DNA from: Chrysomallon squamiferum
Taxonomy: Eukaryota; Animalia; Mollusca
Direction: 5' to 3'
Length of the DNA: 64,000 bases
NCBI GenBank assembly: GCA_012295275.1
Contig: CM022667.1
Coordinates: 4,216,001 to 4,280,000, forward strand
Positions 10,051 to 26,858 of the stretch are shown here, piece after piece (position 1 is the stretch's first letter; each line of letters opens with the position of its first letter). The notes under the pieces were generated by a model. That model made no database searches. It was not told the origin of the DNA and was given only the letters and a program-made list of their open reading frames with translations. Both the position numbers and the translations under genes were made by a program.

Positions 10051-11485
10051 ATGGAGACCTGTGAGTTTTATATATTTTTAGTTATTTTGTACTCGTGTTA
10101 GTTTGATAATTTGAAAACGAAAACATGAAAATAAACATTAAAAATAACTAATAAAACGAAATAAGAACAAAGAAAAAGTAGTAGAAATAAAAACGACCTG
10201 GCTGAGGTTTACGGTCACTGATTGCTAATAATTAAGAAGAAAATACGTTTCAATACAACAACATCATTTCATAATTAGTATTTAAAGTTTAAAGCGATCG
10301 GTTATGGTTTCTATTTATTTATTTATTTTATTGTTTCCATATTTTCAACCCCTGACCTACAATTAACTGATAAACAGCATTACCAGTTCTTAATCAACAA
10401 TCAGGAATACATTACATAAAAGAATTATTAGCAGCGGGTATTATTTCACTTTTATTTAATTTATTTTATTATTAGTATTTACTTCAGAAAGTGTGGTGTG
10501 TGTGTGTGTGTGTGTGTGGGGATTTGGGGTAACAGGAAAAAAAAAAAAAAAAATACGACTAGTGAAGAGAATTCCACATAAAAACTAACTCCACTCGTAT
10601 CACGTGATATGTTTTCCTCAAGAATGAAGAGTTCTCAAGGAAAATATAAAACAAGTTTAGACATGTTGCTCGTTTGCTCAGTAAAGACATTTACTCTTAG
10701 TACACAAATTATTGTCATTAAGTTGATTACTATGATTAACGCCGATCTTGACTGTCATTATTGAAAATAAATACTATTTTAATCAACTACATTTTATGGA
10801 AAATACCGTGACCAAGATAAGAATTTTGTGTCTCTTTAAACAGTCAATTATAATAAAACAGAAATACAAGCCTCTGTGGACGAGGCTTTCTGCTACATGT
10901 ATAGCAATTAATAGAATCTGACACGTGTATTTAACACTTTGTTACAATGATCAAGATTTTTGCTTAATGATGTGACAGATTGTACAGTTCATACGCACGC
11001 ACACATGCACAGAAATAGTGATATTGCATTGGTTAATGTTTTACATTTGATGATATTTTTGATTTTAAAGAATATTGTCTCAGAATGTTATTCCAAGGAA
11101 CATTATTAAAAAATAAATAAAATAAAAGTAAAACAAACAAAGAAAATAAAACTGTTTTATGAACCAACTGTCTTATGGAAGTTCTTACATAAAGGAATTG
11201 TAATAAATAAATTGATATGTGTATCAAACACTTTGTTGTAAAGAATCAAATGACGAAGACTGAATCTTTTCCTGATTAATTTGACAGATTCCACCAGGGC
11301 TGATGAACTCGACTTGGCGATTGTCATGGACTGCACAGGTAAATATATTTTTCATTTTGTTTTTAACTGAATCAAATTTTTTTTTTTTTTTCAATTTAAA
11401 AGAATTTAATTTGATTTACAGACATATCTAATGTTATGCTTACCGAGATTTTGTTTTCTACTGAAAGTGATATGTCACGCTGACA

Positions 11486-11524
<39 letters not shown>

Positions 11525-11886
11525 CACACACAGACACACACACACACACACACGAAAGGAAAGAAAAGAAACAACGAAAGTACAAACAGCACACACGGCT
11601 GAGAGCACTCCAGCAATCGTGGCCAGCCATATGAAGTTAAAACTTTCAGTAAAACGAGTAGGTAGAATTATTATGTGTTTGCGGCTCGAAATGAATTGAA
11701 AAAATTAAATTCACAATTTGTCTTTAAAATTCATTGATAGAATTTTAGTGTTACACATGTTTGTTATTTATGGAAAAGGTTCGGTTGTAGACTCTTCGCG
11801 TTTTAACATTTATTGCCACTTTCAAGTTTATGAGGCAGCTGCTTTCAGTCATTTTGTTTGTTTGTTTATTTGTTTATTTATTTATT

Positions 11887-23100: not shown

Positions 23101-26100
23101 CAAGATTGGTTCTTCATCATTATTTTCTTCTTCTTCTTCTTCTTCTTCTTCTTTCTTCTTCTTCTTATTATTATTATTATTATTATTATTTTTTATTTTT
23201 GTAGGCAGCATGGGAAGGTACATAGAAACAGCAACAGACAACATTAAAAAAATTGTTGACACGATCGTAGCTGAGAAAACTGACGTAAGTTTGGCCCTGA
23301 TTGAATACCGTGACCACCCACCACAGGACAAAACCTTTGTCACAAAATCCCACGACTTCACCAGCAGTATTTCTCAAATGAAACGGTGGCTGGAGAACTG
23401 CTCTGCTGACGGCGGTGGCGATGGACCGGAAGCTGTAGCAGACGGCCTTCACGACCTCCTTAAATTGAACTGGCGTCCTGCATCAACAAAGACAGCAATT
23501 TTAATAACGGACGCACCACCACACGGTCTGGACAAAATTGATGATGGGTTTCCAGATGGCTGTCCCGCAGGTCTGGATCCTCTGCAGATAGCACGAGAGC
23601 TTGCTAAGAAAGAGATAACTCTGTACGTTGTTGGATGCGAACCGTTACTGAAACCATACAAAGAATTCTTCACGGGTTTGGCGTACATCACCGGGGGTCA
23701 GTATGTTCCCCTGGCCGGGTATGAGGCGTTGACTCAGATTATTATTGGAGGGGCCCTGGAAGAGCTGTCCCTCGAGAGACTGATGTGGGAGGTCAATCGA
23801 AAGGTGGATAGGGAAATCCTAGATTGCGAATATAAGAACCTTGATGAATTAGCTGAGAAGATTCGATCCAAACTGTCACGCAAAGATTACAAGGTGAAGA
23901 AGTTGACCAGAAATGGAGTTGGTGTGTGTCATATCAGCGAGAAAGCAAATGCTTATTCAGAAATGAATACAATGTCTGATGCCTCAGAAGCTTTAAAATG
24001 TCAAGAAAATCACGAAGCTGCATTGGACAGCATGTCTAATGGTAAACCACCATGCATATATAATTTAATTTTTTTTTTATTACTATTATTTCCCTTTTAG
24101 GAAGATGATTTATTAAATACTTCTTAAAACTATTTATTTATTTATTGAAATACAGTTATTTTCATAGTTATATTTACAACAAAACCTTCAGCTTTAACAA
24201 AACAGAAACCAATAAACATGCACATATGCACAGAAAGAAAAAGACACATTTTTTATATAGAGAGCTGGTCCTAAATCTGACACTGACGCAAGTTTCAGAC
24301 AAAACAAATAACCAACATTATGACCATATTGGTTTTTATTCATTTTTCAGTATTTACAAATAATTTCTTTTTCCAAATGGTTTTCCAGAAGACGTTGAAA
24401 ATAATGATGAGTTTCCCAGATACGAATGTGTGGAGGTGTCTCTTGATCTCGAACAAGTGAAGAGAATGGTGAAAAAATCACTTGCCAGAAATCATCCAGG
24501 TATTTATAGATTTTTATTTGATTATTATTTGTTTTTTGTGCCATGTTTTACACTTTAAATACTTTTTAAAAATTGTATTTTTTTCTTTATTATATTTTTG
24601 TATAAATACAATTTTTTTTTCTATTTTTTGTATTAACCTAATACGAAAATTACGTAGAAGCTTAGATTTTGTTTTCTAATTTATATGCAGTCACAAACAT
24701 GCATGGACATAAGAAATAATAAGTTGTCAGTGTTTGTATTACGATCTTTTTAAATGCTTTTACGTTTGATAACATTTTGATTTCGAAGAACATAGTTCCA
24801 AAATATTATTCAGTGGCACATATTTAAAAAACAAACCAAAAATATTCCCCCCCAAAAACATAAAAAGCAAAAGAAAGACAACACGTTTTAATGAGCCAGT
24901 TAATCTTACAAAAAGGAGATGTAATATATATATATATATATATATCTAACACTTTGTTAAACAGAATCAAGTGATATAGATTGGATTTTCTTTTCATTAA
25001 TAATTTTACAGATTTCTCGTTCACTGATAAACAACCTTTAAAACTCGACATGGCATTTGTTGTGGACTGTACAGGTAAATATATTTTACATTATGATTTT
25101 ATCTAAATAAAAAAAAAATAAAACATTTAAGATAAAAATCATTCTTAATTTGTTTTAAAGATGTATCAAAAGTGGGATGCTGTTGATTTTGGAAAACTGA
25201 TCCAATGGTATTTAATTTTTGTATGCAGATCTTGGTTCCATAATTTATAGAAAAACATGTACATTTTGGTCTTGAACCATCAGATGTTCTTTGATTCAAT
25301 TTGACGTCATAATCAGAGTTATGTGGCTTTAAACAACGTTTTCTGACTGTCATCAAATTTTGATTAGCACGTTTCACAAATTGAAACCAAAATGTTTATG
25401 AGTTTTTCGGTGTGTCAGTATGTGTGTGTGTGTGTGTGTTTTGTGTTTTAGCATTGTGTTTTTTGGTGTTTGTGTGTTGGTATGTGTTTGATTATGATTG
25501 TCAATTAACACAAACCTATTGTGAATACTCTCTACATCTAGTGATTTAAATGATGACAGTTTCTGGTTGGTTTACTTTCAGCATAACTGAAGTAAAATTG
25601 GATATTTTCTTTTTAAAATTGTCTTATCCATTAAGTGGCAAACACCACTTTTGCATATGCGTCTGCATAGATATATACAAAATGTACCATTTACCTGTTA
25701 AACAAAGAAAACTGGATCTTTAATTATATTAACTCTAGAATGAAATGAATAAACATAACCAGACCAAACATTATTTTATTTTATATTACAAGATTGTTTC
25801 TTTTTTCTTCATCATTTTCTTCTTTTCTTCTATAATTACCTCACCATCATTATCATTGCCATTATCATGATCATTAAATTGTATTATTATTATTATTATT
25901 ATCATCATCATCATTAAATATTATTAAAATTATTATTATTACCATAATCACTGCCATCATTAAATAGTATTGAAAGTTGTTATTTACAGGGAGTATGTCT
26001 GATTACATATGCCATGCTAGAAACAACATTGACAAAGCTGTGGAGACGATCACAGCCACAGAGACGAGTGACGTACGTGTGGCCCTCGTTGAATATTGTT

Positions 26101-26858
26101 ATCACCCATCAAAGGACTCCACCTTTGTCACAAAATCACACGACTTCACGAGAAACATCTCTGAAATGAAACAGAGGTTGGAGAATGGCACTACAACACT
26201 CTGTGGCAATAACCTGAAAGCTTTTGCAGACAGCCTTCACGAGCTCAGTGAAATGAATTGGCGTCCTGCAGCAAAGAAAATAGCAATTTTGTTATCGTTT
26301 GACCCACCCCACGGTCTGGACAAACAGATTTGTGGGTTTCCAGAAGGCCTGGATCCTCTCCAGCTAGTAAGAGATCTTGCTAAGAAAGAGATAACTCTGT
26401 TTGTTGTTGGGTGCGAACCGTCACTGAAATCATACAGAAATTTCTTCATGGGTTTGGCGTACATCAACGGAGGTCAGTATCTTCCCCTGGATGGATATGA
26501 GGCGTTGACACATATTATTAGTGGAGGGGTTCACGAAGAGCTGTCTTTAGAGCGGTTGATGAATAAGATCAATCGAAAGGTGGAGAAGGAAATTCGTGAT
26601 GGCAAGGCTTACAATGTTGATGATTTAGCTAGGAAGATTCATTCGAAACTGTCACGCAAAGGTTACAAGGTGAAGATGCTGACCAGGAATGGAGTTGGTG
26701 TGTGTAAGATCAGTGAAAAAGCAAAAGCTTATTCAAAAATGAATACAATGTCCGAGGTCTCAAGAGCTGATGAAGATGATGATGATGTTTATGTCTGTGT
26801 AGAGCAGTTTCTAGATCTCGAACAAGTGAACAGAATGGTGAAAAAAATCAGTTGCTAG
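10051..26858 (+). CDS. Multi-exon gene encoding six tandem vWA (VwkA-type) domains, about 2003 aa once module 3 indels are corrected
   Basis: Exons: 10051-10060; 11288-11338; 11963-12868; 13717-13767; 14172-15047; 15370-15480; 16136-16186; 17190-18064; 18394-18504; 19162-19212; 20220-21095; 21418-21528; 22178-22228; 23205-24041; 24389-24499; 25012-25074; 25990-26858 (TAG). All GT-AG and all phase 1. Motifs include LDxAxVx[55 protein letters not shown]. The corrected frame has only one stop, in module 6. Confidence 0.8.
10649..10668 (+). promoter_or_regulatory. Second p53-family response-element-like 20-mer, in vWA intron 1
   Basis: AAACAAGTTT AGACATGTTG, zero spacer, 1 mismatch; part of a ~75-bp block duplicated from ~9800-9870. 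Confidence 0.5.
11288..12868 (+). CDS. vWA module 1 (exons 11288-11338 and 11963-12868)
   Basis: [22 protein letters not shown]...[12 protein letters not shown]...DAPPQG...[10 protein letters not shown]; ends at donor CAG|GTATTT. Divergent, with CHHHHS in place of RDHPPQD. Confidence 0.88.
13717..15480 (+). CDS. vWA module 2 (exons 13717-13767, 14172-15047, 15370-15480)
   Basis: 51+876+111 nt, open frame, all canonical motifs present. Confidence 0.88.
16136..18504 (+). CDS. vWA module 3 (exons 16136-16186, 17190-18064, 18394-18504); frameshifted as assembled
   Basis: Near-identical to modules 2 and 4, but the main exon is 875 nt: a compensating -1/+1 pair at ~17522 and ~17550, and a -1 in the G run at ~17770. 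Confidence 0.75.
19162..21528 (+). CDS. vWA module 4 (exons 19162-19212, 20220-21095, 21418-21528)
   Basis: 51+876+111 nt, open frame. Confidence 0.88.
22178..24499 (+). CDS. vWA module 5 (exons 22178-22228, 23205-24041, 24389-24499)
   Basis: 51+837+111 nt, open frame, moderately diverged from modules 2-4. Confidence 0.88.
25012..26858 (+). CDS. vWA module 6, terminal (exons 25012-25074 and 25990-26858)
   Basis: [18 protein letters not shown]...[23 protein letters not shown] is replaced by TLCGNNLKA and SDAPPHG by SFDPPHG. Confidence 0.88.

What the first reader, a model, noticed from the sequence alone, without database searches (positions are those of the whole stretch)
10051..26858. One gene, not six: a ~2000-aa cytosolic protein made only of six tandem VwkA-type vWA domains
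Seen: the apparent vWA ORFs are not separate genes. There is one start exon (ATGGAGACCT|gtgagt). Modules 1-5 end in a phase-1 donor instead of a stop, and each main exon gets its first beta strand and the D-x-T of MIDAS from a 51/63-nt mini-exon. The corrected spliced length is 6012 nt. No signal peptide, TM segment or kinase domain is present. Knowledge: the DxTGSM / YRD / GGGD.PE / DAPPHG signature is the vWA type found fused to alpha-kinases such as Dictyostelium VwkA. Inference: a recently multiplied, polyvalent metal-dependent binding scaffold or sensor; I do not know a described protein with this architecture.
Basis: partly seen in the sequence, partly recalled or inferred. Interest (0 to 1): 0.8.

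Follow-up and report, generated by a model that had tools for sequence, protein, structure and literature searches.

The report
Snail gene with six integrin-like modules
A snail genome carries six head-to-tail copies of a predicted metal-binding, integrin-like protein module behind one likely start exon; they likely splice into one large cell-interior protein that would grip several partners at once, but the joins are untested and one copy is broken as assembled.

Summary
The anatomy is real. One candidate start exon (10051-10060) is followed by six phase-1 modules, with no second start exon and no stop between them. Five modules translate without stops. Relatives are almost all single-module 300-450-aa proteins; the nearest named one is from Gigantopelta aegis (68%). 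The window's modules form their own clade.

Corrections to the finding:
- A module is a vWA core plus a C-terminal subdomain, and its closest solved fold is the integrin beta I domain.
- Modules 1 and 6 have lost family-invariant metal-site residues.
- Module 3 is frameshifted as assembled.
- The final stop rests on one extra A in a homopolymer.
- The end donor is probably ancestral, so it does not prove fusion.

No splice joint was tested with RNA. Best reading (0.55): one transcript giving a five- to six-module cytosolic, polyvalent metal-dependent binder. Main rival: isoforms carrying subsets of modules. The scan had not noted this architecture before; it had noted single-module secreted clam relatives.

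The parts
10051..10060 (+). Only candidate start exon (M-E-T plus 1 nt), phase-1 donor GTGAGT; further upstream exons not excluded
11288..11338 (+). Module 1 mini-exon (first strand, D-C-T)
11963..12868 (+). Module 1 main exon including the C-terminal helix; degenerate (YRD>YCH, DAPPH>DAPPQ); ends in phase-1 donor
13717..13767 (+). Module 2 mini-exon, 98% identical to mini-exon 1 but 65% to mini-exons 3-5
14172..15047 (+). Module 2 main exon, intact metal-site motifs; inferred inner donor at 15047 (in-frame GC alternative at 15059)
15373..15480 (+). Module 2 third exon (C-terminal strand and helix), NAGNAG acceptor, phase-1 donor
16136..16186 (+). Module 3 mini-exon
17190..18064 (+). Module 3 main exon, frameshifted as assembled (indels at 17522, 17548, 17769; stop 17804-17806); mosaic of module 2/4 and module 5 alleles
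18397..18504 (+). Module 3 third exon
19162..19212 (+). Module 4 mini-exon
20220..21095 (+). Module 4 main exon, intact motifs
21421..21528 (+). Module 4 third exon
22178..22228 (+). Module 5 mini-exon
23205..24041 (+). Module 5 main exon, keeps 60 of 60 conserved columns (with its other exons)
24392..24499 (+). Module 5 third exon, phase-1 donor
25012..25074 (+). Module 6 mini-exon (63 nt, in-frame 12-nt insertion)
25990..26858 (+). Module 6 main exon; GGGD.PE and YRD lost; end donor lost; stop depends on an A7 run at 26841-26847

Best explanation
This is likely one snail gene in which a mini-exon plus main-exon module was copied six times inside the gene, and whose exons likely splice into one cytosolic chain of five or six integrin-beta-like vWA modules that would act as a polyvalent, metal-dependent clamp. 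Shown: the six copies, their phase symmetry, the single start exon, open frames in five copies, and intact motifs in modules 2-5 against degenerate motifs in 1 and 6. Inferred steps: (a) each end donor splices to the next mini-exon acceptor 510-850 nt away; (b) module 3 is either intact in vivo (homopolymer errors) or skipped in frame; (c) each intact module holds a divalent ion at D-C-T-G-S plus the Glu of GGGD.PE, and a partner's Asp/Glu completes it, as in integrin beta; (d) three or four such sites in a row give avidity for a repetitive or oligomeric cytosolic target, while modules 1 and 6 are non-binding or altered caps; (e) the pathway is most likely cell-autonomous immunity or stress signalling, which is the weakest step (about 0.3 on its own).
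For: Gene structure:
- One start exon, no internal stops, all exons phase 1.
- The junction introns end in sequence homologous to the 3' end of intron 1, and the repeated unit leaves out the start exon.
- All 5 mini-exon and 5 main-exon acceptors listed keep AG; only module 6's end donor is lost.

Selection:
- dN/dS is 0.48-0.77 over 10 pairs of five modules; 7 of 10 bootstrap intervals lie below 1.
- A neutrally mutated main exon stays open with probability 0.023 at 12% and 0.003 at 20% substitution. Modules 1 and 6 are 75-81% identical to the others and open.
- The third exon encodes the strand and helix that the homologue model places in the C-terminal subdomain, and it keeps its frame between modules 2-4 and 5.

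Fold:
- The homologue P0079 model (pLDDT 95) best matches integrin beta6 (Z 17.7, rmsd 3.2, 198 aligned). The top 50 Foldseek ranks shown are all integrin beta chains.
- The family profile aligns GGGDgPEA and DAPPH to beta6 NIDTPEG and DADSH (E 0.013, weak).
- The beta3 residues of these sites are listed in PMC3792891 (passage).

Pathway hints:
- Relatives carry the module fused to AIG1 (Gigantopelta P0005), GBP/URGCP GTPase, ubiquitin and alpha-kinase.
- The window's clade has a long stem (0.38).
Against: - No splice joint was observed in RNA.
- Module 3 has a premature stop as assembled.
- The end donor is probably ancestral: genomic gene calls in a relative end PPP-GIV-stop, where the Gigantopelta model continues PPP-VRGP (inference).
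- dN/dS is high and the method ignores transition bias, so constraint may be weaker than computed; 3 of 10 intervals include 1.
- No animal protein with several full modules was among the 337 proteins held.
- The inner donor of modules 2-5 (ATG|GTAAAA, ATG|GTAAAC) is only moderately consensus-like.
- The fold evidence comes from a homologue, not from the window's own modules.
- Published animal 'vwkA' mentions point to shell field, irradiation and regeneration, not immunity.
Confidence: 0.55

Rival explanations
1. One promoter, many isoforms: the start exon splices to any mini-exon and modules are skipped or used one at a time. Transcripts end by read-through of a module's end donor or at an ancestral short terminal exon downstream, giving mostly one- to few-module proteins.
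For: All cassettes are phase 1-1, so any subset is in frame. Nearly all relatives are single-module proteins (331 of 337 with one hit). The ancestor probably had a terminal exon after the end donor, and an N gap at 28971-29170 could hide it. Read-through of end donors reaches a stop within 9-47 codons.
Against: No docking/selector-like inverted repeat among the 25 longest of 1231 pairs, all low-complexity (shorter ones not examined). The four acceptor candidates between module 6 and the gap show no resemblance to the Gigantopelta tail. Intact donor-acceptor pairs across short introns normally splice to each other (general knowledge).
Confidence: 0.25
2. A decaying tandem array under relaxed selection: modules 1 and 6 are eroding, module 3 is truly broken, and the main transcript is destroyed or truncated, so no large functional protein is made.
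For: Modules 1 and 6 lost 12 and 18 of 60 conserved columns, against a maximum of 10 substitutions among 136 homologues. Module 3 has frameshifts and module 6 a homopolymer-dependent stop. dN/dS is near 0.6.
Against: Modules 1 and 6 remain open at 20-25% divergence, with dN/dS intervals below 1. They share a derived R>C change and group together (99/91), so part of the degeneracy is old. All four suspect indels sit in or beside homopolymer runs.
Confidence: 0.12
3. Assembly expansion: modules 2-4 are one or two real copies laid out three times, so the gene has four or five modules.
For: The main exons of modules 2-4 are 98.6-99.5% identical over a ~3.0-kb period. Module 3 is a mosaic, sharing 16 substitutions with module 5 against modules 2 and 4, as mis-polishing could produce.
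Against: The three units differ at 42 substitution columns in several patterns, and module 2 has a unique 5' side. Modules 1, 2, 5 and 6 are 8-25% apart, so at least four modules are real. This rival changes the count, not the architecture.
Confidence: 0.08

Closest known systems
Stand-alone 'VwkA-like' vWA proteins of molluscs, rotifers, fungi and protists (e.g. Gigantopelta aegis XP_041375542.1 and XP_041361288.1; Pfam VWA PF00092, VWA_4 PF25106)
   Same: Same module over its whole length, 50-68% identity, same invariant D/G/G/E/D/H residues in modules 2-5; same intron before G-S-M in the nearest relatives.
   Different: They hold one module (median 405 aa among held single-hit proteins). 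Here six lie in one reading frame, two degenerate, and four have gained an intron.
Dictyostelium VwkA (vWFA-kinase; PMC2827801, passages)
   Same: Cytosolic vWA-type domain; databases name close relatives 'alpha-protein kinase vwkA-like'; 36% match to the vWA part of a Ub-vWA-alpha-kinase protein.
   Different: No alpha-kinase domain here. VwkA has one vWA motif. VwkA itself was not aligned.
Integrin beta I domain (beta6, beta8, beta7, beta3)
   Same: Best structural match of the homologue model (Z 17.7) and best, weak, profile match to solved sequences; D-x-T-x-S, D-x-P-E and D-x-x-x-H positions align.
   Different: 15-20% identity; no signal peptide, hybrid/PSI/EGF domains, TM segment or alpha partner; the acidic residues after D-x-S-x-S-M in beta6 are absent; a C-terminal subdomain follows the core.
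Multi-copy relatives in databases: P0003 (Panaeolus cyanescens PPQ74668.1, 923 aa) and P0264 (unnamed, 1549 aa)
   Same: Tandem copies of the same vWA type: two full modules in P0003, seven vWA cores in P0264.
   Different: P0003 is an unverified fungal gene model with two copies. P0264 begins with a hydrophobic, signal-like stretch and repeats a shorter unit without the animal C-terminal subdomain. Neither is characterised.
Extracellular tandem-vWA proteins (von Willebrand factor A1-A3, collagen VI, matrilins; recalled)
   Same: Polyvalency through tandem vWA domains.
   Different: Secreted, and of the alpha-I/collagen type; such vWA domains rank below integrin beta in the fold search.

Membership tests
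vWA superfamily (Pfam VWA/VWA_4) | Profile match above the curated cut-off | tested here: met
   main exons of modules 2, 4, 5 and 6 pass PF00092; module 1 does not (20 bits against 23.8); mini-exons were not included and module 3 was not scanned
vWA superfamily (Pfam VWA/VWA_4) | Rossmann-like vWA fold | tested here: met
   Shown for the homologue P0079. The single-sequence model of module 6 was uninformative
Stand-alone VwkA-like vWA family | DxTGSM, RDH, GGGD.PE and D..PH motifs | tested here: met
   Met in modules 2, 4 and 5 (57-60 of 60 columns) and in module 3 apart from its indels; not met in modules 1 and 6
Stand-alone VwkA-like vWA family | C-terminal subdomain ending in the Q..RMV.KS..RN helix | tested here: inconclusive
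   Encoded in all six modules, but in modules 2-5 only if the inferred inner intron is spliced
Stand-alone VwkA-like vWA family | One module per polypeptide | tested here: inconclusive
   Genomic layout says several; no transcript data
VwkA / vWFA-kinases | C-terminal alpha-kinase domain | tested here: not met
   tblastn with P0074 hits only its vWA part in the window; sequence beyond the window and in the N gap not seen
VwkA / vWFA-kinases | vWA domain homologous to that of Dictyostelium VwkA | tested here: inconclusive
   Indirect only: database names and P0074
Integrin beta subunits | beta I domain with MIDAS and SyMBS residues | tested here: inconclusive
   Fold match and weak motif alignment. 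Equating YRD Asp with beta3 D158 is inferred; metal binding is untested
Integrin beta subunits | Signal peptide, leg domains, TM segment and cytoplasmic tail | tested here: not met
   No hydrophobic segment above 1.13; no other Pfam domain above cut-off; no signal-peptide predictor was run

The most novel reading that the evidence does not exclude
A cytosolic, single-chain array of integrin-beta-I-like domains in an animal: three or four metal-competent clamps between two pseudo-MIDAS caps, built by intragenic amplification of a stand-alone family of unknown function. In-frame module skipping could tune its valency, and it would act as an avidity sensor in snail cell-autonomous immunity.
Probability: 0.3. 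Interest if true: 0.65.

Novelty: new variant of a known kind. Interest (0 to 1): 0.45.

Why it matters
The stand-alone VwkA-like vWA proteins are widespread in invertebrates and fungi, often carry a kinase name without a kinase domain, and have no tested function in the papers I found. A natural polyvalent version, with intact and degenerate modules side by side, would be a good bait for finding the family's ligand and for testing whether an integrin-beta-type metal site works inside the cell. It also records intragenic amplification in progress: copy homogenisation, a re-copied mini-exon and an intron gain. The general principle, tandem vWA repeats made by duplicating symmetric exons, is not new, which limits the score.

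Tried and rejected
- No whole genome is held for this window.
- Sequencing runs: 9 of 11 listed runs hold words of 10000-19999. Five runs (four guessed DNA, one of unknown kind) hold 0.52-0.70, and two RNA runs hold small shares (0.18, 0.09). No reads or contigs were laid, so this is not used as evidence for expression, joints or copy number.
- A protein search with the frame holding module 2's third exon, for transcript-derived junction peptides of 39-125 aa, found no candidate; uninformative.
- The first metagenome scan with the window's own exon found nothing.
- The second scan gave 79 loci. One (L015) has two full copies, each ending in its own stop; three others flagged as double are overlapping hits on one copy. 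Most loci are short, so this is weak.
- Trimer prediction of homologue P0079 gave no verdict; not evidence either way.
- A single-sequence fold of module 6 gave pLDDT 39; discarded.
- Single-sequence search of solved structures: one chance hit. The profile found none at E 0.01 and weak integrin hits at E 0.013 and above.
- Indel-length test: multiples of three in 5 of 5 core and mini-exon gaps against 5 of 26 intron gaps, but only 4 of 11 gaps in two whole-exon alignments. Too noisy to lean on.
- STAT-like sites near the start exon: one N3 site among 24 in the window; rejected.
- Internal ATG starts at G-S-M would lack the first strand and the MIDAS Asp; rejected as separate genes.
- The atlas search only returned unnamed vWA clusters.
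- Eight literature searches showed no description of a multi-module protein of this family. Subscription journals are mostly missing from that library.
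Full report
OBSERVATION. The window is AT-rich animal DNA. Between 10051 and 26858 on the plus strand lie six copies of a module. The exon model is in 'parts'. Every exon is bounded by AG and GT and is entered in phase 1. All internal exons have lengths divisible by three except the module 3 main exon (875 nt). The start-exon word ATGGAGAC occurs once in 64 kb. 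Modules 1-5 end in CAG|GTATTT, while the homologous site in module 6 is CCGA|ATATTT. Joining modules 1, 2, 4, 5 and 6 behind the start exon gives 1654 aa and one final stop, with no hydrophobic 19-mer above 1.13.

CORRECTIONS TO THE FINDING. Module 3 carries three single-base indels in or beside homopolymer runs and stops at 17804-17806 as assembled. The last stop depends on a seventh A in a run where modules 2 and 5 have six; in the other frame module 6 would read on for about 40 codons. The total is 5999 nt as assembled. Modules 2-5 have an extra intron before the exon for the C-terminal strand and helix; modules 1 and 6 and the nearest relatives encode these in the main exon.

WHAT A MODULE IS. 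Pfam VWA and VWA_4 match the first ~150 residues of the main exons. The near-length search found 419 proteins at E 1e-40 or better and listed 120. The best is Gigantopelta aegis P0076 at 68%, followed by other mollusc, rotifer and unnamed proteins of 205-465 aa. The host is therefore most likely a gastropod near that lineage (inference). A model of the homologue P0079, built on 136 sequences, is confident throughout (pLDDT 95): a vWA core to about residue 205, then a C-terminal subdomain of helices and two strands. Its best solved matches are integrin beta I domains (Z 17.7, rmsd 3.2, 198 aligned for beta6; the best non-integrin vWA scores 15.7; likewise). The family profile weakly aligns GGGDgPEA and DAPPH with beta6 NIDTPEG and DADSH (E 0.013). 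PMC3792891 (one passage read) lists beta3 D119/S121/S123/E220 at MIDAS and D158/N215/D217/P219/E220 at SyMBS. So the family's invariant residues (D52, G86, G87, E91, D118, H122 in 136 of 136) likely form an integrin-beta-type metal site. Of 60 conserved columns, modules 2, 4 and 5 keep 57, 59 and 60. Module 1 keeps 48 (R51C, D52H, H122Q). Module 6 keeps 42 and loses D52, D88, P90, E91 and D118. At most four modules are predicted to bind metal normally.

HISTORY. In a 32-row tree with module 3 left out, the five modules form one clade (100/99) on a long stem, next to the Gigantopelta-type paralogues; modules 1 and 6 group together (99/91). The 3' ends of junction introns 2-5 are homologous to the 3' end of intron 1, and the start exon is outside the repeated unit. 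The intron before module 2 holds an 81% match to the intron that follows mini-exon 6, and mini-exon 2 is a 98% copy of mini-exon 1, which suggests a mini-exon was lost and re-supplied there (inference). Units 2-4 differ at 42 substitution columns; unit 3 shares 16 of them with unit 5 and unit 4 shares 6. This fits a two-module duplication with conversion, or mis-polishing. Genomic gene calls from a relative read through an intron at the same G-S-M position and end PPP-GIV-stop, where the Gigantopelta model continues PPP-VRGP. I infer that the ancestor already had a phase-1 donor at the module end leading to a short last exon. The module was thus a ready-made symmetric cassette, and the donors of modules 1-5 do not by themselves show fusion.

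SELECTION. Nei-Gojobori dN/dS is 0.48-0.77 over 10 pairs, with 7 of 10 bootstrap intervals below 1; transition bias is not corrected. The chance that a neutrally mutated main exon stays open is 0.023 at 12% and 0.003 at 20% substitution. The modules have been translated through most of their divergence but evolve fast.

HOW RARE. Of 337 proteins held, 331 had one module hit, four had two, one had seven and one (the zinc-finger protein) had none. Only P0003 (fungal gene model, two full modules) and P0264 (unnamed, seven vWA cores) are clearly multi-copy. Limits: the long-protein search covered 511-2000 aa (73 hits), and the representative search listed 150 of 6609 hits and did not list P0003. 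Absence of other arrays is therefore not shown. Fusions seen include AIG1 in Gigantopelta, GBP/URGCP GTPase, ubiquitin and alpha-kinase.

LITERATURE. PMC2827801 (passages): VwkA is an N-terminal vWFA motif plus a C-terminal alpha-kinase at contractile vacuole and Golgi. PMC9283884 (passages and one supplement search): a mussel 'VwkA' transcript is expressed in the larval shell field and rises at low pH; I did not check whether it is this family. PMC10665377 and PMC7217437 (one passage each): 'vwkA' rises after irradiation in a rotifer and is tabulated among Notch-affected genes in brittle-star regeneration. PMC7159879 (passages): MIDAS binds an extended peptide, in other vWA classes. Eight searches showed no multi-module member (listings only unless named above).

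MECHANISM AND VERDICT. Most likely (0.55) the exons splice consecutively into one cytosolic chain of five or six modules. In it, the three or four central modules each clamp an acidic residue of a partner through a divalent ion and gain avidity by repetition, and the outer two are altered caps. An immune or stress role is a weaker guess from fusion partners and fast evolution. Rivals are subset isoforms (0.25), a decaying array (0.12) and a wrong copy count (0.08). No RNA could be laid on the locus, so every joint is untested. This is a real, lineage-specific variant of a known but uncharacterised family: new variant of a known kind, interest 0.45.

Noticed in passing
window 32815-63298 (+): Tandem array of TNF-family type II membrane genes: at least six copies of a cytoplasmic/TM exon (near 33162, 35331, 44590, 54197, 60224, 62815; several split across frames) and TNF-domain exons at 38546-38938 and 47535-47924 (Pfam TNF E 4.5e-17).
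   Followed up: partly
window 2244-4049 (-): 601-codon open frame with seven zf-met (matrin-type C2H2) fingers, transcribed away from the vWA gene; useful as a synteny marker.
   Followed up: partly
window 28971-29170: 200-base N gap 2.1 kb after module 6; a further exon could lie in or beyond it.
   Followed up: no
window 15048-15372, 18065-18396, 21096-21420, 24042-24391: Intron present only in modules 2-5, partly homologous (66-67%) to the 3' flank of module 6: an apparent intron gain from a duplicated flank.
   Followed up: partly
window 9788-9869 and 10600-10686: An ~85-nt element is duplicated (78%) on either side of the start exon.
   Followed up: no
P0005 / P0338 (Gigantopelta aegis LOC121379331): The same vWA module fused to an AIG1/GIMAP GTPase, with two isoforms that differ in a hydrophobic C-terminal tail.
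   Followed up: partly
P0264 (unnamed, 1549 aa): Protein with a signal-like N-terminus and seven tandem vWA cores of this type that together pass the Pfam Integrin_beta cut-off.
   Followed up: no
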